64,000 nucleotides of DNA from Escherichia coli (GTDB lineage: Bacteria; Pseudomonadota; Gammaproteobacteria; Enterobacterales; Enterobacteriaceae), in assembly GCF_041886205.1 (NCBI RefSeq), contig NZ_CP169029.1, one strand, 5' to 3'. Made by a program: the position numbers and the translations under genes. Shown piece by piece: positions 1,981 to 23,258 of the stretch. The first letter of the stretch is position 1, and the number at the start of each line of letters is the position of its first letter. The notes below the pieces were generated by a model. That model ran no database searches and was not told the DNA's origin. It was given only the letters and a program-made list of their open reading frames with translations.

Positions 1981-2745
1981 ATGGCGCATCGGCTACTCAT
2001 TGGTAAAGGAATGATCACCTTGAATCTCAAACGGATTTTTCTCACCCTCACCTTACTTCCCTTGTTTGCTGTTGCCGCTGATGATTGCGCACTCTCAGAT
2101 CCGACGCTGACCGTACAGGCGTATACCGTTAATCCTCAAACAGAGCGGGTGAAAATGTACTGGCAAAAAGCCAATGGCGAAGCGTGGGGAACGTTACATG
2201 CTCTGCTGGCGGATATGAATAGTCAGGGTCAGGTGCAGATGGCGATGAACGGCGGCATCTATGATGAAAGCTATGCGCCGCTCGGTTTGTACATCGAAAA
2301 CGGTCAGCAGAAGGTGGCGTTAAATCTCGCTTCAGGTGAAGGGAATTTCTTTATTCGTCCTGGCGGCGTGTTTTATGTCGCGGGAGATAAAGTCGGCATC
2401 GTTCGTCTGGATGCCTTTAAAGCCAGTAAAGAGATTCAGTTTGCGGTGCAGTCAGGGCCAATGTTGATGGAAAACGGTGTAATTAATCCGCGTATTCATC
2501 CCAACGTCGCCTCACGCAAAATTCGTAACGGTGTTGGGATTAATAAACATGGGAACGCCGTGTTTTTGTTGAGCCAGCAGGCAACAAATTTTTATGATTT
2601 TTCCTGTTATGCCAAAGCGAAACTGAACGTTGAGCAGCTGCTTTATCTTGATGGCACGATTTCACATATGTATATGAAAGGCGGGGCAATCCCGTGGCAA
2701 CGCTATCCTTTTGTCACCATGATTTCCGTCGAGCGGAAAGGTTAG
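1981..2745 (+). CDS. yigE: Exported protein YigE (DUF2233), signal peptide present
   Basis: ORF track 254 aa with N-terminal signal-like hydrophobic segment; located between corA and uvrD. Confidence 0.8.
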   Translation: MAHRLLIGKGMITLNLKRIFLTLTLLPLFAVAADDCALSDPTLTVQAYTVNPQTERVKMYWQKANGEAWGTLHALLADMNSQGQVQMAMNGGIYDESYAPLGLYIENGQQKVALNLASGEGNFFIRPGGVFYVAGDKVGIVRLDAFKASKEIQFAVQSGPMLMENGVINPRIHPNVASRKIRNGVGINKHGNAVFLLSQQATNFYDFSCYAKAKLNVEQLLYLDGTISHMYMKGGAIPWQRYPFVTMISVERKG

Positions 2746-2783: not shown

Positions 2784-2890
2784 TGCCGGAAGCGGCGTAA
2801 ACGCCTTATCCGGCCTACATGACGTTGCAATTTATTGAATCTGAATGATTTTTTAGGCCAAATAAGGTGCGCAGCACCGCATCCGGCAAC
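2784..2890. repeat. RIP/BIME-type element: two inverted REP (GCCGGATG...) copies flanking an IHF-like core cgttgcaatttattgaat
   Basis: Palindromic REP units readable directly; the same core recurs at 21311-21415. Confidence 0.8.
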
Positions 2891-2891
2891 G

Positions 2892-5054
2892 TTACACCGA
2901 CTCCAGCCGGGCGTAAGCTGCCACCAGCCATTTGATTCCCTGGCCCTGGAATGCCACCTGCAAACGGCTATGTTCGCCGCTGCCTTCCATATTGACGATA
3001 GTGCCTTCACCAAACTTAGCGTGGCGTACGCGCTGGCCGAGCTTGTAGCCGCTGTCGTTCTCGACCATCGGCGTACCCATCCGCTGATGGCTAACCGGGC
3101 GGCTTACCGTGGCGCGCAGGCGCACCTCTTCCACACACTCTTCCGGCAGCTCGCCAATAAAGCGCGACGGGCGATGGTAAACTTCTTTGCCATACAGACG
3201 GCGAGTTTCCGCGTAGGTCAGCGTCAGTTTCTGCATCGCGCGGGTTACACCAACGTAGGCCAGACGGCGTTCTTCTTCCAGACGCCCGCCTTCATCCAGC
3301 GACATCTGGCTTGGGAACATGCCCTCTTCCATACCAACGATAAACACCTGAGGAAACTCCAGACCTTTCGCCGAGTGTAGCGTCATCAACTGCACCGCAT
3401 CCTGCCAGGTATCCGCCTGCCCTTCACCTGCTTCCAGTGCCGCATGGGAGAGGAACGCCTGCAGCGGCATTAAATCTTCGTCTTCTTCGTTGTAGCTGAA
3501 CTGGCGCGTTGCCGTCACCAGTTCCTCTAAGTTTTCGATACGCGTCTGACCTTTTTCGCCCTTCTCCTGCTCGTACATGGTGCGCAGGCCGGAGTCTTTA
3601 ATTACCCGGTCAGTCTGTACATGCAGCGGCATATCGGCAGTTTCTTGCGCTAAGGCGTCGATTAATTCCATAAATCGCTGCAAGGCGCTGGCAGCTCGCC
3701 CGGCGAGCGCTTTTTCCTGCAACAGCTCACGACATGCCTGCCAGAGTGTTAACTGGCGATCGCGCGATGTCTGACGTACCACGTCCAGCGTCCGGTCACC
3801 AATACCCCGCGTTGGCGTATTCACCACACGCTCAAAGGCCGCGTCGTCGTTGCGGTTGGCAATCAGGCGCAGATACGAGAGCGCATCTTTGATTTCCTGG
3901 CGTTCGAAGAATCGCATCCCGCCGTAAATACGGTACGGCATACTGGCCTGCAATAACGCCTCTTCCAGTACACGCGACTGGGCGTTGCTGCGGTAGAGAA
4001 TGGCGCACTCGGCAAGCGCCCCGCCGTTGTCCTGCCAGGTTTTGATGCGGTTAACCACAAAACGCGCTTCATCGAGTTCGTTAAAAGCGCAATAGAGGGA
4101 AATAGGCTCACCGTCCGCGCCATCGGTCCACAGTTTTTTACCCAGACGCCCGTTATTGTTTTCAATCAGGGCGTTAGCGGCGCTCAGAATATTGCTGGTA
4201 GAGCGGTAGTTTTGCTCCAGACGAATAGTTTCGGCACCGGGGAAATCATTAAGGAAACGCTGAATATTCTCCACCTGCGCCCCGCGCCAGCCGTAGATTG
4301 ACTGGTCGTCATCACCGACGATCATCACTTTGCCGGTGTCGCCCGCCAGCAGGCGGATCCACGCGTACTGAATGTTGTTGGTATCCTGGAATTCGTCCAC
4401 CAGGATGTTGGTAAAACGTTCGCGGTAGTGTTGCAGGATATGCGGCTTGTTAAGCCACAGTTCGTGGGCGCGCAGCAGCAGCTCGGCGAAGTCCACCAGG
4501 CCCGCGCGGTCACACGCTTCCTGATACGCCTGATACACCTTCTGCCAGGTCTGCTCCACCGGATTACCGTAGCTTTGAATATGATGCGGACGCAGGCCTT
4601 CATCTTTCTGGCTGTTGATGTACCACATTGCCTGGCGCGGCGGCCACTGCTTCTCGTCGAGGTTCATGGCTTTGATCAGACGCTTAAGCAGGCGTAGCTG
4701 GTCTTCACTGTCGAGGATCTGGAAATCCTGCGGCAGATTGGCGTCCATATGGTGCGCACGCAGCAAACGATGCGCCAGCCCGTGGAAGGTGCCGACCCAC
4801 ATGCCGCCCTGGCTGGTGCCCATCAGTTGCCCGATACGATGACGCATTTCCGCCGCCGCTTTGTTGGTAAACGTCACCGCCATAATCGAGTATGGCGAGC
4901 AGTTTTCCACGCTCATCAGCCAGGCGATACGATGCACCAGTACGCGCGTCTTACCACTGCCCGCGCCCGCCAGCACCAGAAGGTTGCTGCGTGGCGCGGC
5001 CACCGCTTCGCGCTGTTTGTCGTTAAGGCTGTCGAGCAGGTAAGAAACGTCCAT
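2892..5054 (-). CDS. uvrD: DNA helicase II UvrD
   Basis: Translation begins MDVSYLLDSLNDKQREAV with Walker A AGAGSGKT; 720 aa after trimming the ORF-track N-terminal extension. Confidence 0.95.
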   Translation of the reverse strand: MDVSYLLDSLNDKQREAVAAPRSNLLVLAGAGSGKTRVLVHRIAWLMSVENCSPYSIMAVTFTNKAAAEMRHRIGQLMGTSQGGMWVGTFHGLAHRLLRAHHMDANLPQDFQILDSEDQLRLLKRLIKAMNLDEKQWPPRQAMWYINSQKDEGLRPHHIQSYGNPVEQTWQKVYQAYQEACDRAGLVDFAELLLRAHELWLNKPHILQHYRERFTNILVDEFQDTNNIQYAWIRLLAGDTGKVMIVGDDDQSIYGWRGAQVENIQRFLNDFPGAETIRLEQNYRSTSNILSAANALIENNNGRLGKKLWTDGADGEPISLYCAFNELDEARFVVNRIKTWQDNGGALAECAILYRSNAQSRVLEEALLQASMPYRIYGGMRFFERQEIKDALSYLRLIANRNDDAAFERVVNTPTRGIGDRTLDVVRQTSRDRQLTLWQACRELLQEKALAGRAASALQRFMELIDALAQETADMPLHVQTDRVIKDSGLRTMYEQEKGEKGQTRIENLEELVTATRQFSYNEEDEDLMPLQAFLSHAALEAGEGQADTWQDAVQLMTLHSAKGLEFPQVFIVGMEEGMFPSQMSLDEGGRLEEERRLAYVGVTRAMQKLTLTYAETRRLYGKEVYHRPSRFIGELPEECVEEVRLRATVSRPVSHQRMGTPMVENDSGYKLGQRVRHAKFGEGTIVNMEGSGEHSRLQVAFQGQGIKWLVAAYARLESV

Positions 5055-5112
5055 TGGCACCGCCGCGTAAAAATAGGTTGGGCGGAGAAGCGCAACGCCC
5101 TCCGCCAAAAAG

Positions 5113-5128
5113 CTGGGTATATATACAG
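5113..5128 (-). promoter_or_regulatory. LexA (SOS) box CTGTATATATACCCAG upstream of uvrD
   Basis: CTG-N10-CAG palindrome about 60 bp upstream of the uvrD start codon. Confidence 0.8.
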
Positions 5129-5137
5129 ATTTGCTGA

Positions 5138-5854
5138 TTATATCAGCGAGGTCAGAGATGCCAACCGGGAAATTTCCAGATGCGGCAGTAAACGGCTGTC
5201 CCAGGTTTGCATCAGATCGCCATTTTCCGGTCTGATCCAACAAGCCTGCATTCCGCTGCGAATTGCCCCACCCACGTCAGTGGTGAGATCGTCCCCAACA
5301 TGTAAGATCTCGCCGATCGGCACGTTGAGTTTTTCCGCAGCCAGAAAGTACATATCGCTGAACGGTTTTGAGCGCCCGTGCGGGCCAGCGCGCAGCACAA
5401 ACTCAAAATAATCCCCCAAACCAAACAGTTCCGGCTGGGCGTTACCGTTGGTGATCGCCACCAGCGGCCATTTCTTCGCCAGCTGTTTTAAGGTGTCGTG
5501 AGTTTGCTGCGGGACGTCGATTCGGCTGCGCCATTTGGCAAAGTTAATCATTGCTGCGTGTGCGCCTGCACTGGCTTCTTCGGCACTCAGCCCGGCGTCG
5601 AGCATCGCTTGTTCAATCGATCGAAAACGCCAGCGCGTCACATCGTGATAAATCTCGGGTTCCGCTTCCCGTACCGCCTGGCGCAGGCGTTGCAGATCTT
5701 CATTCCGGAAGCTGCGCAGCGCCGGATGATAATTTTGCACAAAGGTAAGCGCCTCTCGCTCGGTGCGCAAAATCACCGGACGGTTATCGTAAAGGGTATC
5801 ATCCAGGTCAAAGGTGAGCGCCGAGATGCGCCCCAAAGGCCGGTAAAAACGCAT
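5138..5854 (-). CDS. yigB: HAD-family phosphatase YigB
   Basis: ORF 238 aa with HAD motif [11 protein letters not shown] near N-terminus. Confidence 0.9.
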
Positions 5855-17743: not shown

Positions 17744-18940
17744 ATGCTAAAAGTGTTATTGCTCTTTGTGTTGCTGATTGCGGGGATCGTGGTTGGCCCG
17801 ATGATTGCCGGTCATCAGGGTTATGTGCTGATCCAGACCGACAACTACAATATCGAAACCAGCGTCACGGGCCTCGCGATTATTTTGATTCTGGCGATGG
17901 TAGTACTGTTTGCCATTGAGTGGCTACTGCGGCGGATCTTCCGCACTGGCGCGCACACCCGTGGGTGGTTTGTCGGGCGTAAGCGTCGCCGTGCACGTAA
18001 GCAGACCGAACAGGCGCTGCTGAAACTGGCGGAAGGCGATTATCAGCAAGTTGAAAAGCTGATGGCGAAAAATGCCGATCACGCGGAACAACCGGTGGTG
18101 AACTATCTACTGGCTGCCGAAGCCGCGCAACAACGTGGTGATGAAGCACGCGCCAACCAACATCTGGAACGCGCAGCGGAGCTGGCCGGCAATGACACCA
18201 TTCCGGTAGAAATCACCCGTGTACGTCTGCAACTGGCCCGTAATGAAAACCATGCTGCACGCCACGGCGTGGATAAGCTGCTGGAAGTTACGCCACGCCA
18301 TCCGGAAGTATTACGTCTGGCAGAACAGGCGTATATCCGCACAGGTGCATGGAGTTCGCTGCTGGATATTATCCCATCAATGGCGAAAGCCCATGTTGGT
18401 GATGAAGAACATCGTGCAATGCTGGAACAACAGGCATGGATTGGCCTGATGGATCAGGCGCGTGCCGATAACGGTAGCGAAGGTTTGCGTAACTGGTGGA
18501 AAAACCAAAGCCGGAAAACGCGTCATCAGGTAGCGTTGCAGGTGGCAATGGCGGAACATCTTATTGAATGTGACGATCATGATACTGCCCAGCAAATTAT
18601 CATCGACGGCCTGAAACGCCAGTATGACGATCGTCTGCTGCTGCCGATTCCGCGTCTGAAAACCAATAACCCGGAACAGCTGGAAAAAGTGCTGCGCCAA
18701 CAGATCAAAAACGTCGGCGATCGCCCGCTGTTGTGGAGCACACTGGGTCAGTCGCTGATGAAGCACGGCGAATGGCAGGAAGCATCGCTCGCCTTCCGTG
18801 CAGCGCTGAAACAACGTCCGGACGCCTACGATTACGCATGGCTTGCCGACGCGCTGGACAGACTGCACAAGCCGGAAGAAGCCGCAGCGATGCGTCGCGA
18901 CGGTTTGATGTTAACGTTGCAGAATAACCCGCCACAGTAG
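17744..18940 (+). CDS. hemY: HemY, TPR-containing inner membrane protein
   Basis: 398 aa; two N-terminal TM segments; follows hemX with a 2-nt gap. Confidence 0.9.
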   Translation: MLKVLLLFVLLIAGIVVGPMIAGHQGYVLIQTDNYNIETSVTGLAIILILAMVVLFAIEWLLRRIFRTGAHTRGWFVGRKRRRARKQTEQALLKLAEGDYQQVEKLMAKNADHAEQPVVNYLLAAEAAQQRGDEARANQHLERAAELAGNDTIPVEITRVRLQLARNENHAARHGVDKLLEVTPRHPEVLRLAEQAYIRTGAWSSLLDIIPSMAKAHVGDEEHRAMLEQQAWIGLMDQARADNGSEGLRNWWKNQSRKTRHQVALQVAMAEHLIECDDHDTAQQIIIDGLKRQYDDRLLLPIPRLKTNNPEQLEKVLRQQIKNVGDRPLLWSTLGQSLMKHGEWQEASLAFRAALKQRPDAYDYAWLADALDRLHKPEEAAAMRRDGLMLTLQNNPPQ

Positions 18941-18950
18941 TTCCTTCTCA

Positions 18951-18980
18951 CCCGGAGGAAAGCACCTCCGGGACCTTTCT
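18951..18980 (+). terminator. Hairpin cccggagg-N6-cctccggg followed by a T-containing tract; likely hemCDXY terminator
   Basis: Perfect 8-bp stem immediately after hemY stop. Confidence 0.5.
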
Positions 18981-18987
18981 GATGCAT

Positions 18988-19194
18988 AAAAAAACGCCTG
19001 CTCTTATTACGGAGCAGGCGTTAAAACAGGTCTGTATGACAACAAGTGGGTGCTTCACTCAACGTTGTGTCCATGGTGTCTGATGAGGCATAAGCGACAT
19101 CTGTCAGTGGACGATAAGCACCGTAAACGGCTCTGCGTCATTCCGGAGTTTATGAGGCACTAAGGCGAACATAAGAGATAGAATGAGCATCTAC
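18988..19194 (-). ncRNA. glmZ: GlmZ small RNA (SraJ/RyiA), about 207 nt, with intrinsic terminator
   Basis: Minus-strand sequence starts GTAGATGCTCATTCCATCTCTTATG... and ends in hairpin AACGCCTGCTC...GAGCAGGCGTT plus U7; known location between hemY and aslA. Confidence 0.8.
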
Positions 19195-19618
19195 TCGTTT
19201 ATTATGCCACAGAGAATCGGGAAATAACATCCCTTAACACTTGTTATGAGATAATTCTGTACCCCTCTTTGCTTCCTGAGTAATAACTTCCTGAGTGAAT
19301 ATTTACCCTGAGCTTGATTCTACACATACTCATTATGAATGATAAAATTCATTCAATTAATAACACATATATTAATTGCTGTTAAAACTAAAAACAGCAT
19401 CAATAATCAACGCGATATAATAAACCTGCCTTACATATCAACTGCGCCAGAGGTAGGATTGAAAATGCTCTCCTGATTTTTAAATTCATTTTTGGGATAA
19501 ATAAATAATTTATTTTTATCACTATTATTTATGCAATCATCCTGTCAGGGAGAGGGATCTCAATTATCAATGCTTAATTACGTCATCATTTTGATGACAT
19601 GAAACCGGAGCATTTTGC

Positions 19619-21274
19619 ATGGAATTTTCGTTTTCACCCAAACTTCTTGTTGTTGCTGTCGCCGCCGCTCTTCCTCTCATGGCCAGCGCAGCTGATACCC
19701 CGTCAACTGCCACCGCACGCAAAGGCTTTGCCGGATACGATCACCCAAACCAGTATCTGGTTAAACCGGCGACCACTATTGCCGACAACATGATGCCAGT
19801 AATGCAGCATCCGGCGCAGGATAAAGAAACCCAGCAGAAGCTGGCAGAACTTGAGAAAAAAACCGGTAAGAAGCCCAACGTAGTGATCTTTCTTCTGGAT
19901 GACGTGGGCTGGATGGACGTCGGCTTTAACGGCGGCGGCGTGGCAGTGGGTAACCCTACACCAGATATCGACGCCGTTGCCAGCCAGGGGCTGATTTTAA
20001 CTTCGGCGTATTCTCAACCAAGCTCTTCCCCAACCCGCGCCACCATTCTCACCGGACAATACTCCATCCACCACGGCATTCTGATGCCGCCAATGTACGG
20101 GCAACCGGGCGGGCTGCATGGGTTAACCACGCTGCCGCAGTTGCTGCACGATCAGGGCTACGTCACTCAGGCCATCGGGAAATGGCATATGGGAGAAAAC
20201 AAAGAGTCGCAGCCGCAGAACGTTGGCTTTGATGATTTCCGTGGCTTTAACTCGGTGTCTGATATGTACACCGAATGGCGCGACGTTCACGTAAACCCGG
20301 AAGTGGCCCTGAGTCCGGACCGTTCTGAATACATCAAGCAATTACCGTTCAGCAAAGATGACGTTCATGCAGTGCGCGGCGGCGAACAACAGGCCATTGC
20401 CGACATTACGCCGAAATATATGGAAGATCTGGATCAACGCTGGATGGACTATGGCGTTAAGTTCCTCGACAAGATGGCGAAGAGCGATAAGCCTTTCTTC
20501 CTCTATTACGGCACTCGCGGCTGTCACTTCGATAACTACCCGAACGCCAAATATGCGGGTAGCTCTCCGGCGCGCACCTCTTACGGCGACTGCATGGTGG
20601 AGATGAACGATGTGTTCGCTAATCTGTATAAAACACTGGAGAAAAACGGTCAGCTTGATAACACGCTGATCGTCTTTACCTCCGATAACGGACCGGAAGC
20701 CGAAGTACCGCCGCACGGACGCACACCGTTCCGTGGTGCGAAAGGTTCGACCTGGGAAGGCGGCGTTCGCGTACCGACTTTCGTTTACTGGAAAGGGATG
20801 ATCCAACCGCGTAAATCTGACGGTATTGTCGATCTGGCAGATCTCTTCCCTACCGCGCTGGATCTGGCAGGGCATCCTGGAGCGAAAGTGGCGAATTTAG
20901 TGCCGAAAACCACCTTTATCGATGGTGTGGACCAGACATCCTTCTTCCTGGGAACAAATGGTCAGTCTAACCGTAAGGCCGAGCACTACTTCCTCAACGG
21001 TAAACTCGCTGCTGTGCGTATGGATGAGTTCAAGTATCACGTCCTGATTCAGCAACCTTACGCTTATACCCAGAGCGGATATCAGGGTGGATTCACCGGC
21101 ACAGTAATGCAAACGGCGGGATCGTCGGTGTTTAACCTGTACACCGATCCGCAGGAAAGCGACTCTATCGGCGTGCGCCATATTCCGATGGGTGTACCGC
21201 TACAGACCGAAATGCACGCATATATGGAGATCCTGAAAAAATATCCACCACGCGCGCAGATTAAATCTGATTAA
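19619..21274 (+). CDS. aslA: Arylsulfatase AslA (Ser-type sulfatase, S-x-P-x-R motif), periplasmic
   Basis: 551 aa; signal peptide; sulfatase signature [13 protein letters not shown] around nt 20027-20045. Confidence 0.9.
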
Positions 21275-21310
21275 GCCGGCGCTATCGCTACATCGGGCCA
21301 CACTGACCTT

Positions 21311-21415
21311 GCCGGATGCGATGCTGACGCATCTTATCCGGCCTACAGAACGTTGCAATTTATTGAATTTGCAAGGATTGTAGGCCGGATAAGGCGTTCA
21401 CGCCGCATCCGGCAA
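21311..21415. repeat. RIP/BIME-type element (REP - IHF-like core cgttgcaatttattgaat - REP) between convergent aslA and aslB
   Basis: Near-identical to the element at 2784-2890. Confidence 0.8.
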
Positions 21416-21439
21416 TCAACCGCAGGCGGCCGCCGATTT

Positions 21440-22675
21440 CTACTTACTCACCACCAGCAAATGCGCCTGCATAATGTCGCTGGCCGGGCGACCGTGCGCC
21501 AGCAAATCAGCCATTGCTTTAAGATATGGCGGTAGATGGCGGAAATAACGCTGATATCCGGCACACAAATAATTCAGCCCCGGTTTGCCGCTGGCATCGA
21601 GCATGAAGCGGTGTTTCGGGCAGCCTCCCCAACATGCTTTTAACACGTTACAACTGCGACACTGCGCCGGTAACTGCTTAAATTTATCTTCACCAAACAC
21701 CTGCTGTTGCGGGGAATCGATCATTTCTGCAATTGTTTGCTGGTGCATATTCCCCAGCCGATATTGCGGATAAACATAGTGATCGCAGGCGTAAACGTCG
21801 CCGTTGTGCTCAACAATCACCGAGCGCCCACAGGTTGGCTGATGATGGCAAACCGCACCCGGCGCACCGACAAAATTGGCAAACGCCCATTCGATATTCA
21901 TCACGAAAATCTTGCCGACGTCGCGTTTGATCCAGTGGTCGAATATCGCCACCAGAAACTCACCGAACTCCTCGGGGCGCACCGACCATTCCGTTAGCTC
22001 ACCCTGAATATCACCAGGCGCATGTAACTTAAGTCCATCGCGGGCAGCTGTTTCATCAGCCAGGCGCTCGACCACCGGAATAAACTGGATGAATTCGACT
22101 CCCACATCGCACAAAAAATCATATACCTGCAACGGTTGCTGCGCGCTGGTGCGATTAACGCAGACCAGCACGTTATAGTCGACATGATGCTTTTGCAGCA
22201 GCTTCAAGGCACGCATCACCAGTTTATGCGTGGGTCTGCCGCCTTTGGTCACGCGATATTGATTGTGGATCTCAGCCGGACCATCCAGCGATAACCCAAC
22301 AAGAAAATGATTTTCTGCCAGAAATGCACACCATTCATCATCGAGCAGCACGCCGTTAGTCTGGAAGCTGTTACTTATCTTCCTGCCAGCACCATATTTC
22401 GCCTGTAGCGCCACGGCACGGCGGTAAAAATCCAGCCCGAGTAACGTTGGTTCGCCGCCCTGCCAGGTAAAAGCCACTTCGTTTTGGGTTTCGCTGGCGG
22501 CGATATAGTGACGGACATACGCTTCCAGCGTGTCATCGTCCATATGCGTGACTGGCTTTTCGCGGTAAATGGATTGTTTTTCGAGATAAAAACAGTAGTC
22601 ACAGTTCAGATTACAATCGGAACCGCTCGGTTTCGCCATCACATGAAAAGCACGCGTTGGAATCTGTTGCAGCAT
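21440..22675 (-). CDS. aslB: Anaerobic sulfatase-maturating enzyme homolog AslB (radical SAM)
   Basis: Translation MLQQIPTRAFHVMAKPSGSDCNLNCDYCFY (CxxxCxxC radical SAM motif) plus C-terminal Cys clusters; 411 aa. Confidence 0.9.
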   Translation of the reverse strand: MLQQIPTRAFHVMAKPSGSDCNLNCDYCFYLEKQSIYREKPVTHMDDDTLEAYVRHYIAASETQNEVAFTWQGGEPTLLGLDFYRRAVALQAKYGAGRKISNSFQTNGVLLDDEWCAFLAENHFLVGLSLDGPAEIHNQYRVTKGGRPTHKLVMRALKLLQKHHVDYNVLVCVNRTSAQQPLQVYDFLCDVGVEFIQFIPVVERLADETAARDGLKLHAPGDIQGELTEWSVRPEEFGEFLVAIFDHWIKRDVGKIFVMNIEWAFANFVGAPGAVCHHQPTCGRSVIVEHNGDVYACDHYVYPQYRLGNMHQQTIAEMIDSPQQQVFGEDKFKQLPAQCRSCNVLKACWGGCPKHRFMLDASGKPGLNYLCAGYQRYFRHLPPYLKAMADLLAHGRPASDIMQAHLLVVSK

Positions 22676-22789
22676 GGTCGCTCCTTGCCTGAAGTCATCC
22701 TTCAATACGTTAAGGGCGAAATCATACCGTGGGACAATGAGTTATTACGGGCGTTTATTGCGAAGGGAGAGTGACGAAATGCACAGAAA

Positions 22790-22822
22790 ACAAAAAACCC
22801 CGCCGAAGCGGGGTTCAAAATT
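22790..22822 (-). terminator. Intrinsic terminator after proM (hairpin ccccgcttcggcgggg + U-run on minus strand)
   Basis: GC stem with tetraloop followed by T-run when read on minus strand. Confidence 0.7.
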
Positions 22823-22899
22823 GGTCGGCGAGAGAGGATTCGAACCTCCGACCCACTGGTCCCAAACCAGTTGCGCTACCAAGCTGCGCTACTCGCCGA
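22823..22899 (-). tRNA. proM: tRNA-Pro (anticodon UGG)
   Basis: Minus strand reads TCGGCGAGTAGCGCAGCTTGGTAGCGCAACTGGTTTGGGACC...CCA-end; cloverleaf and anticodon loop identified. Confidence 0.9.
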
Positions 22900-22940
22900 A
22901 ATACTGCTTTTTGAATTTTTAGTTCAATTCTTTAAAGTCG

Positions 22941-23027
22941 TGGTGCGAGGGGGGGGACTTGAACCCCCACGTCCGTAAGGACACTAACACCTGAAGCTAG
23001 CGCGTCTACCAATTCCGCCACCTTCGC
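22941..23027 (-). tRNA. leuT: tRNA-Leu (anticodon CAG), long variable arm
   Basis: Minus strand GCGAAGGTGGCGGAATTGGTAGACGCG...CTTCAGGTG...CACCA. Confidence 0.9.
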
Positions 23028-23047
23028 ATTGTCACAACTTCTAATAA

Positions 23048-23124
23048 TGGGGTGGCTAATGGGATTCGAACCCACGACAACTGGAATCACAATCCAGGGC
23101 TCTACCAACTGAGCTATAGCCACC
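23048..23124 (-). tRNA. hisR: tRNA-His (anticodon GUG) with extra 5' G
   Basis: Minus strand GGTGGCTATAGCTCAGTTGGTAGAGC...GATTGTGATTC...CCA. Confidence 0.9.
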
Positions 23125-23181
23125 ACTACAAATCTTGTTACGCGGTATTACTACCACCGCAGCTCAAGCGCCGGGACTAAA

Positions 23182-23258
<77 letters not shown>

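What the first reader, a model, noticed from the sequence alone, without database searches (positions are those of the whole stretch)
19619..22675. Ser-type sulfatase (AslA) with convergent radical-SAM maturase homolog (AslB)
AslA carries the sulfatase signature as S-S-P-T-R (Ser rather than Cys at the modified position, about 20027-20041). Serine-type sulfatases require a radical-SAM anaerobic maturase; AslB has the CxxxCxxC motif (CNLNCDYC) and further Cys clusters. The pair is convergently arranged with a RIP element between them rather than forming an operon.
Basis: partly seen in the sequence, partly recalled or inferred. Interest (0 to 1): 0.3.

Follow-up and report, generated by a model that had tools for sequence, protein, structure and literature searches.

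The report
E. coli aslA–aslB sulfatase and maturase

Summary
Window 19619-21274 (+) is E. coli aslA (551 aa) and 21440-22675 (-) is aslB (411 aa). The boundaries match RefSeq annotation exactly.

- **AslA.** It is an S1 sulfatase. Ser136 aligns with the catalytic Cys of PsFucS1 and human ARSA. The same column is Cys in 84 and Ser in 34 of 120 homologues.
- **AslB.** It passes the NCBIfam anaerobic sulfatase maturase equivalog (521 bits, cut-off 349). It keeps CX3CX2C, all eight auxiliary-cluster cysteines and the catalytic Asp of Clostridium anSME.
- **Spacer.** The 165-nt spacer holds two inverted REPs around an IHF-like core, which is the RIP architecture.
- **Synteny.** The tail-to-tail pairing recurs in 4 of 5 Ser-type relatives from other taxa.

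All of this is already known, so interest is low.

One side result: about 32% of complete E. coli genomes carry an aslA deletion. All 8 sampled share one junction, inside the RIP. In every sampled case aslB is still intact, so AslB probably has clients other than AslA.

That AslB converts Ser136 of AslA remains inferred. I found no direct test of it.

The parts
19619..21274 (+). aslA CDS, 551 aa, S1 (formylglycine-dependent) sulfatase precursor
   Evidence: ORF. RefSeq 'arylsulfatase AslA' at identical coordinates. Pfam PF00884 E = 9e-72. Best solved relative is 7AJ0 PsFucS1, E = 5.5e-101.
19619..19690 (+). Predicted Sec-type signal peptide ([24 protein letters not shown] | AD). There is no twin-arginine.
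   Evidence: Read directly from the translation. The cleavage site is inferred, not computed with a predictor.
20024..20056 (+). Sulfatase signature S136[10 protein letters not shown]. The Ser136 codon TCT (20024-20026) is the predicted formylglycine position.
   Evidence: Coordinates. Alignment to the 7AJ0 motif Cys and to ARSA position 69. Column is C 84 / S 34 in 120 homologues.
21309..21415 (.). RIP/BIME-1-type repeat: left REP 21309-21347, core 21348-21378 with the IHF-like ATTCAATAAATTG (21356-21368, - strand), right REP 21379-21415
   Evidence: Inverted repeats. A second copy with the same architecture lies at window 2785-2880. Non-coding parts of the query hit a median of 38 places per E. 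coli genome, against 1 for each CDS. RNA fold is -83 and -86 kcal/mol, z about -6.8, on either strand.
21440..22675 (-). aslB CDS, 411 aa, radical-SAM/SPASM anaerobic sulfatase-maturating enzyme
   Evidence: RefSeq 'anaerobic sulfatase maturase' at identical coordinates. TIGR03942 521 bits against cut-off 349. 4K36 anSMEcpe E = 4e-65.
22592..22615 (-). CX3CX2C (C21-N-L-N-C25-D-Y-C28), ligands of the radical-SAM [4Fe-4S] cluster
21563..21850 (-). SPASM region with the eight auxiliary-cluster Cys (276, 282, 297, 339, 342, 348, 352, 371) and Asp298
   Evidence: Residue-by-residue alignment to anSMEcpe. Positions. All are conserved in five neighbouring rSAM proteins of AslA homologues.

Best explanation
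This is the Escherichia coli aslA-aslB locus.

aslA encodes a Sec-exported, periplasmic S1 sulfatase whose catalytic residue is encoded as Ser136, so it is a 'Ser-type' sulfatase. aslB encodes a cytoplasmic radical-SAM/SPASM enzyme with three [4Fe-4S] clusters.

The most likely mechanism follows that of characterised anSMEs. AslB binds the unfolded S-S-P-T-R-x-x-x-L-T-G segment of the AslA precursor before export. It cleaves SAM to a 5'-deoxyadenosyl radical, abstracts a C-beta hydrogen of Ser136 and oxidises it to C-alpha-formylglycine, passing the electron out through the two auxiliary clusters. The mature AslA then hydrolyses sulfate esters in the periplasm, using the hydrated aldehyde and a divalent metal.

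The two genes are separate, convergent transcription units. Their 3' ends meet at a RIP (REP-IHF-REP) repeat, which can form a hairpin of about 105 nt in either transcript. It probably acts as a shared 3' end barrier or stabiliser.

Shown here: gene identity, motifs, residue correspondences, repeat architecture and conserved synteny. Inferred: that AslB acts on AslA, where that happens, the substrate of AslA, and any role of the RIP.
For: - 100% DNA identity to annotated E. coli genomes with the same CDS boundaries.
- Pfam Sulfatase 242 bits.
- Ser136 sits at the Cys position of 7AJ0 and ARSA and of 84 Cys-type homologues.
- The DD, GKWH, SDNGPE and KG(S/T)T(W/Y)EGG active-site blocks align with ARSA.
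- AslB is above the TIGR03942 equivalog cut-off.
- All 3 + 8 cluster Cys, Asp298 (= anSMEcpe Asp277) and the GGEPTL block are conserved.
- An AslB orthologue (61-72% identity, all Cys kept) lies convergently 43-70 nt downstream of 4 of 5 sampled Ser-type AslA homologues, each in a different neighbourhood: Uliginosibacterium, a deltaproteobacterium, Enterobacter and Citrobacter.
- aslA dN/dS is 0.03 and aslB 0.07-0.12.
- PMC11215262 reports that AslB overexpression raises the activity of recombinant human sulfatases up to 4.6-fold. PMC7771511 describes the anSME mechanism.
Against: - I found no direct demonstration that AslB converts Ser136 of AslA. The reported AslB effect is on Cys-type human enzymes.
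- MG1655 RefSeq still calls both products 'putative'.
- About 32% of complete E. coli genomes have lost aslA yet keep an intact aslB, so AslB is not tied to AslA alone.
- One Ser-type homologue has no maturase within 4 kb, and Cys-type homologues can also sit next to rSAM genes. The context sample is small and not statistically decisive.
- Sulfatase maturation in E. coli is described as incompletely understood, with a third unidentified system suspected (PMC8379841).
- No NCBIfam equivalog reaches its cut-off for AslA, so the substrate is unknown.
Confidence: 0.85

Rival explanations
1. AslB is a general-purpose maturase, or has a non-AslA client, rather than being AslA's dedicated partner. 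The adjacency would then be historical.
For: - aslB covers at least 80% of the query in 5424 of 5425 genomes with a match. aslA does so in only 3693.
- In 8 of 8 sampled aslA-deleted genomes aslB is a full ORF, not flagged as a pseudogene.
- Its syn:nonsyn polymorphic codons are 39:14 in deletion carriers and 84:24 in intact genomes.
- Other candidate clients are nearly universal: ydeN (Ser-type, SGPSR) in 5332 and yidJ (Cys-type, CTPAR) in 5114 of 5426 genomes.
- anSMEs recognise mostly the peptide backbone, and one enzyme can serve many sulfatases (PMC7771511).
Against: - The convergent sulfatase-rSAM pair travels as a unit into unrelated neighbourhoods in four other taxa.
- ydeN has its own adjacent maturase gene, ydeM, with a full Cys set.
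- This rival is compatible with AslB also maturing AslA, so it extends the main explanation rather than replacing it.
Confidence: 0.45
2. The locus is cryptic or decaying in E. coli. The genes would be silent or non-functional under natural conditions and be lost by deletion and IS insertion.
For: - The aslA deletion is present in about 1732 of 5425 genomes.
- IS1 lies inside aslA in some strains (H10-H12).
- IS1397 lies in the spacer in L021.
- K-12 annotation reads 'putative'.
- From my own recollection, not verified here: laboratory E. coli shows no arylsulfatase activity and needs Klebsiella atsB to mature Klebsiella AtsA.
Against: - There is strong purifying selection where the genes are present: aslA dN/dS 0.03, aslB about 0.1.
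- All catalytic and cluster residues are intact.
- The aslA deletion is a single allele with one junction, not many independent decay events.
- aslA presence associates with invasive isolates in comparative studies (PMC11879602; PMC11565901).
Confidence: 0.15
3. AslA works without formylglycine. Ser136 would act directly as nucleophile, as in alkaline-phosphatase-type hydrolases, or the enzyme would be a phosphoester or phosphonate hydrolase. AslB would then be irrelevant to it.
For: - Weak sub-threshold hits to the Phosphodiest and PehA families.
- A Ser-type metagenomic sulfatase was active when made in E. coli without an obvious maturase (PMC8379841).
Against: - The full (C/S)xPxRxxxLTG maturation motif is conserved, and the position alternates only between Cys and Ser in homologues. 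That is the pattern of FGly enzymes.
- The same paper offers intrinsic E. coli maturation as its explanation.
- The phosphodiesterase hits are far below their cut-offs.
Confidence: 0.05

Closest known systems
Klebsiella pneumoniae AtsA / AtsB (Ser-type arylsulfatase and its iron-sulfur maturase)
   Same: Both have a periplasmic Ser-type S1 sulfatase with an SxPxR motif and a cytoplasmic radical-SAM/SPASM maturase encoded next to it. The expected chemistry, Ser to formylglycine, is the same (background: PMC3920027; PMC7771511).
   Different: By my own knowledge and the title cited, atsB and atsA form one operon. Here the genes are convergent and separated by a RIP. AslA belongs to a different sulfatase subfamily, since its nearest solved relative is an S1_13 enzyme. 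No activity has been shown for AslA.
Clostridium perfringens anSMEcpe (PDB 4K36-4K39)
   Same: E = 4e-65 over the whole length. It has the same CX3CX2C, the same eight auxiliary Cys, Asp277 (= Asp298 in AslB) and the GGEPTL SAM-binding block.
   Different: anSMEcpe's natural client is a Cys-type sulfatase. AslB's adjacent client is Ser-type. AslB is about 40 residues longer and has an insertion around aa 205-225.
PsFucS1, Pseudoalteromonas fucoidan sulfatase, SulfAtlas S1_13 (PDB 7AJ0)
   Same: It is the best solved relative of AslA (E = 5.5e-101, aligned over aa 52-544). It has the same fold blocks and is Ca2+-dependent.
   Different: PsFucS1 is Cys-type with an atypical C-T-S-S-R motif. AslA is S-S-P-T-R. 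Placing AslA in subfamily S1_13 is inferred from this hit, not checked in SulfAtlas.
E. coli YdeN / YdeM
   Same: This is a second Ser-type sulfatase (SGPSR) with an adjacent anSME-like gene carrying a full Cys set, in the same species.
   Different: ydeN and ydeM are co-directional neighbours, whereas aslA and aslB are convergent. ydeN is present in 98% of genomes, while aslA is present in 68%.
RIP / RIB / BIME-1 repeats of E. coli
   Same: The element has two inverted REP palindromic units around a conserved core with an IHF-like site. It lies between the 3' ends of convergent genes, and it is a multi-copy family. The RIB paper title, cited in PMC4550694, places these elements at 3' ends of transcription units.
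   Different: Nothing unusual was seen. IHF binding was not tested, and the spacer length varies between strains from 90 to 167 nt.

Membership tests
S1 formylglycine-dependent sulfatase (Pfam PF00884) | Sulfatase domain match above the curated cut-off | tested here: met
   242.3 bits against cut-off 25, aa 86-418.
S1 formylglycine-dependent sulfatase (Pfam PF00884) | (C/S)-x-P-x-R signature followed by x-x-x-L-T-G at the position of the catalytic residue | tested here: met
   S136[10 protein letters not shown]. It aligns to the 7AJ0 and ARSA motifs and to 120 homologues.
S1 formylglycine-dependent sulfatase (Pfam PF00884) | Metal-binding and catalytic blocks (DD, GKWH, DNG, K-G-T-x-EGG) | tested here: met
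   [22 protein letters not shown] and [12 protein letters not shown] align with the corresponding ARSA blocks.
S1 formylglycine-dependent sulfatase (Pfam PF00884) | Residue actually converted to formylglycine, and sulfate-ester hydrolysis | not testable with these tools
   This needs mass spectrometry and enzyme assay.
Ser-type subclass of S1 sulfatases | Serine, not cysteine, encoded at the formylglycine position | tested here: met
   Codon TCT at 20024-20026. K-12 has the same motif. The enterobacterial clade is Ser, while more distant homologues are mostly Cys.
Anaerobic sulfatase-maturating enzyme (NCBIfam TIGR03942, radical SAM/SPASM) | Equivalog HMM above the curated cut-off | tested here: met
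   521.3 bits against 349.45. PRK13745 scores 474.4 against 484, just below its cut-off.
Anaerobic sulfatase-maturating enzyme (NCBIfam TIGR03942, radical SAM/SPASM) | CX3CX2C radical-SAM cluster motif | tested here: met
   C21, C25, C28.
Anaerobic sulfatase-maturating enzyme (NCBIfam TIGR03942, radical SAM/SPASM) | Eight Cys ligating two auxiliary [4Fe-4S] clusters (anSMEcpe 255/261/276/330 and 317/320/326/348) | tested here: met
   AslB 276/282/297/352 and 339/342/348/371, by alignment.
Anaerobic sulfatase-maturating enzyme (NCBIfam TIGR03942, radical SAM/SPASM) | Converts Ser or Cys of a sulfatase to formylglycine | not testable with these tools
   The only support is a literature report of AslB raising the activity of Cys-type human sulfatases (cited in PMC11215262). 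The primary paper is not held.
RIP / BIME-1 repeat | Two REP palindromic units in inverted orientation | tested here: met
   Arms 21309-21320/21404-21415 and 21333-21347/21379-21393 are 100% complementary.
RIP / BIME-1 repeat | Conserved core with an IHF consensus site between the REPs | tested here: inconclusive
   ATTCAATAAATTG has one mismatch to WATCAANNNNTTR, and the identical 13-mer occupies the same place in the second copy at 2828-2840. The consensus alone is not enriched in the window (52 found, 47 expected). Binding was not tested.
RIP / BIME-1 repeat | Member of a dispersed multi-copy family | tested here: met
   There is a second copy in the window. The query with the spacer hits a median of 38 places per genome, against 1 for either CDS alone.

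The most novel reading that the evidence does not exclude
AslB has a selectively maintained function that does not depend on AslA. A single, recombining deletion allele has removed aslA (window about 19758-21342, with its junction inside the RIP) from roughly a third of E. coli. aslB beside it stays intact and shows no excess of amino-acid changes. AslB may therefore mature YdeN or YidJ, or an unrecognised peptide substrate. If so, the aslA presence/absence scored as a 'virulence factor' in genomic surveys reflects one REP-associated deletion rather than gene acquisition.
Probability: 0.4. Interest if true: 0.3.

Novelty: already known. Interest (0 to 1): 0.1.

Why it matters
It matters little as a discovery. 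aslA and aslB are named, annotated genes, and the Ser-type sulfatase / anSME logic is textbook.

Two points retain some value:
1. The biochemical link between AslB and Ser136 of AslA, and the substrate of AslA, have apparently never been shown. Meanwhile aslA is widely scored as an invasion-associated gene.
2. The presence/absence polymorphism of aslA is a single deletion allele that leaves aslB behind. This affects how 'aslA-positive' calls in virulence-gene surveys should be read.

Tried and rejected
- **NCBIfam for AslA.** No equivalog reached its cut-off. The best was PRK13759 arylsulfatase at 107 bits against 481, so no substrate could be assigned.
- **Promoter and terminator scan of 18900-22900.** Counts were no higher than in shuffles. 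No canonical intrinsic terminator lies between the genes. Only the REP hairpins and a short GGCGGCCGCC palindrome are there.
- **IHF consensus scan.** It was not enriched window-wide, so the IHF site rests on family resemblance only.
- **Papers I could not read.** Hoffman 2000, Benjdia 2007 (FEBS Lett) and Almeciga-Diaz 2017 are not held. Statements about them come from citing papers or from my memory and are marked as such.
- **Ser/Cys versus neighbouring maturase.** An adjacent rSAM gene was found for 4 of 5 Ser-type and 2 of 6 Cys-type homologues. FGE was found only next to Cys-type (2 of 6). The sample is too small to be significant.
- **Relaxed selection on aslB in aslA-deleted genomes.** No signal was seen, but only 8 genomes were used, and recombination prevents dating divergence relative to the deletion.
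- **The longer TTG start at 22705.** I rejected it in favour of ATG 22675. That start has an AAGGAG 6 nt upstream, homology to anSMEcpe begins at aa 12 of the short form, and RefSeq agrees.
- **The SSPAR match at aa 315.** I rejected it as the catalytic motif on the basis of the alignments.
Full report
**1. What is there**

The region holds two long convergent ORFs: 19619-21274 (+, 551 aa) and 21440-22675 (-, 411 aa from the ATG). The mechanical ORF list extends the second to a TTG at 22705.

A megablast against 5,426 complete E. coli genomes gives 100% identity over 19400-22900 to several strains. There the same coordinates are annotated 'aslA: arylsulfatase AslA' and 'aslB: anaerobic sulfatase maturase'. 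In MG1655 they are b3801 and b3800, 'putative sulfatase AslA' and 'putative anaerobic sulfatase maturation enzyme AslB'.

The neighbours are the canonical ones: hemX and hemY, then the sRNA GlmZ (18988-19194, -), upstream of aslA; on the other side, beyond aslB, the tRNA cluster Pro(tgg)-Leu(cag)-His(gtg)-Arg(ccg) at 22822-23258 (-), then thrP/yifK. So the window is an E. coli chromosome. It is about 97% identical to K-12 at this locus.

**2. The sulfatase and its modified residue**

AslA matches Pfam Sulfatase at 242 bits (cut-off 25) over aa 86-418.

The closest solved structure is 7AJ0 (E = 5.5e-101). This is the Ca2+-dependent S1_13 fucoidan sulfatase PsFucS1. Its 'QPTCTSSRA' aligns with AslA 'QPSSSPTRA', which places Ser136 on the motif Cys. 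Human arylsulfatase A entries (C69S and C69A mutants) align position 69 with the same Ser136. The DD, GKWH, DNGPE and KGxTxEGG blocks also align.

In a MAFFT alignment of the 120 best database homologues, column 136 is Cys in 84, Ser in 34 and a gap in 3 truncated proteins. Every Cys-type sequence reads C-S-P-(T/S)-R at exactly this place. The Ser state dominates the closest relatives, at 73% identity or more (Escherichia, Salmonella, Citrobacter, Kluyvera, Enterobacter and some others). Cys dominates below that.

A second SxPxR match, SSPAR at aa 315, is a decoy.

The N-terminus ([26 protein letters not shown]) looks like a Sec signal peptide without a twin-arginine. This implies export of an unfolded chain, so modification would occur in the cytoplasm. 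That step is inference.

**3. The maturase**

AslB matches Radical_SAM (E = 1.6e-18) and SPASM (E = 1.3e-11). It scores 521 bits on the NCBIfam equivalog TIGR03942 'anaerobic sulfatase maturase', whose cut-off is 349.

It aligns end to end with Clostridium perfringens anSMEcpe (4K36, E = 4e-65). Counting through that alignment gives these correspondences:

| AslB residues | anSMEcpe equivalent | Role |
|---|---|---|
| C21, C25, C28 | CX3CX2C | radical-SAM cluster |
| C276, C282, C297, C352 | C255, C261, C276, C330 | Aux I |
| C339, C342, C348, C371 | C317, C320, C326, C348 | Aux II |
| D298 | D277 | catalytic Asp |

The ligand lists come from PMC5715301 and PMC5682303.

**4. The spacer**

The 165-nt spacer has two REP units in inverted orientation (21309-21347 and 21379-21415). 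They flank a 31-nt core containing ATTCAATAAATTG, which has one mismatch to the IHF consensus.

A second element with the same REP-core-REP layout and the same 13-mer lies at window 2785-2880. It too sits between the 3' ends of convergent ORFs.

The query that includes the spacer hits a median of 38 places per genome, whereas either CDS alone hits one. Transcribed in either direction, the spacer folds into a hairpin of about 105 nt (-83 and -86 kcal/mol, z about -6.8). No canonical intrinsic terminator is present.

'RIP element' is therefore a fair description. IHF binding and any terminator or stabiliser role are not shown.

**5. Are the two genes a functional pair?**

Evidence from synteny is as follows.
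- Four of five sampled Ser-type homologues have a radical-SAM/SPASM gene convergently 43-70 nt downstream. They come from Uliginosibacterium, a deltaproteobacterium, Enterobacter sp. and Citrobacter sp., each in a different neighbourhood.
- These neighbours are AslB orthologues at 61-72% identity, with every cluster Cys and the Asp conserved.
- The fifth Ser-type homologue has no maturase within 4 kb.
- Of six Cys-type homologues, three have no maturase nearby. One has an FGE gene downstream, one has both an rSAM gene and FGE upstream, and one has an rSAM gene upstream.

This fits established knowledge: FGE acts only on Cys, and anSMEs act on both Ser and Cys (PMC3920027; PMC7771511). The sample is too small for statistics.

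Both genes are under purifying selection. Between the window and K-12, aslA dN/dS is 0.03 and aslB is 0.07-0.12.

Direct biochemical evidence is thin. A citing paper reports that AslB overexpression raises the activity of recombinant human Cys-type sulfatases up to 4.6-fold (PMC11215262). Another describes aslB and ydeM as 'putative anSME proteins' and says a third maturation system is suspected (PMC8379841). I found nothing showing formylglycine at Ser136 of AslA.

**6. A population-level wrinkle (not part of the finding)**

aslB covers at least 80% of the query in 5424 of 5425 genomes, but aslA does so in only 3693. In the other roughly 1732 (32%), the sampled matches cover only the first 139 nt of aslA.

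All eight sampled genomes of that class have the same junction. aslA nt 1 to about 138 is fused to the left REP of the RIP (...CCAGTATC|CACAGAACGCTGCAATTTATTGAA...). This is a deletion of window positions about 19758 to 21342. The remnant is annotated as a pseudogene, and aslB is a full 1236-nt ORF.

The aslB alleles next to the deletion differ by up to 43 nt. On a neighbour-joining tree they interleave with alleles from aslA-intact genomes, so one deletion allele has been moved around by recombination. Their synonymous-only versus amino-acid-changing polymorphic codons are 39:14, against 84:24 in intact genomes, which gives no sign of decay at low power.

Other possible AslB clients are nearly universal. 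ydeN (Ser-type, SGPSR, with its own neighbour ydeM) is in 5332 genomes, and yidJ (Cys-type, CTPAR) is in 5114 of 5426.

This suggests that AslB is not solely AslA's partner. It also means that aslA 'presence' in virulence-gene surveys (PMC11879602, PMC11565901) reflects loss by one deletion rather than acquisition.

**7. Verdict**

Novelty is 'already known' and interest is low. The open points are experimental: whether AslB really converts Ser136, what AslA hydrolyses, and why aslB persists without aslA.

Noticed in passing
window about 19758-21342 (absent in L002, L003, L013-L018): About 32% of complete E. coli genomes (about 1732 of 5425) lack all but the first 139 nt or so of aslA. All 8 sampled share one identical junction, inside the left REP of the RIP. 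They keep an intact aslB. The aslB alleles beside the deletion are diverse, which implies that the deletion allele spread by recombination.
   Followed up: partly
L021 3462-4810 (strain PS_131_S11); H10-H12: An IS1397 (IS3-family) copy is inserted in the aslA-aslB spacer of one strain. By my recollection, this IS targets REP/BIME units. IS1 interrupts aslA in some wastewater isolates.
   Followed up: no
window 21416-21439, compared with L002 4700-4745: Between the RIP and the aslB stop codon, many strains have a hairpin plus T-run (GCGGCCAcaaaaTGGCCGC TTTTTT) that looks like an intrinsic terminator for aslA. The window and K-12 carry a 9-nt shorter version (GGCGGCCGCC GATTTC) that lacks the loop and the T-run. 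The spacer length ranges from 90 to 167 nt among strains.
   Followed up: no
window 2785-2880: A second RIP-type element (REP - core with the same ATTCAATAAATTG - REP) lies between the 3' ends of convergent ORFs 1981-2745 (+) and 2892-5243 (-).
   Followed up: partly
window 18988-19194 (-): The GlmZ sRNA (Rfam RF00083, 216 bits) lies in the hemY-aslA intergenic region, with a terminator-like hairpin at 19022-18993. About 420 nt of AT-rich sequence separates it from the aslA start.
   Followed up: no
window 22822-23258 (-): A four-gene tRNA cluster, Arg(ccg)-His(gtg)-Leu(cag)-Pro(tgg) (argX-hisR-leuT-proM), ends with a strong terminator-like hairpin at 22816-22795. That is about 120 nt upstream of the aslB start on the same strand, so aslB may need its own promoter in that short gap.
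   Followed up: no
window 20561-20575 (AslA aa 315-319): A second SxPxR-like string (SSPAR) occurs inside AslA. It does not align with the catalytic motif of any relative and is a chance match that could mislead motif-only scans.
   Followed up: yes
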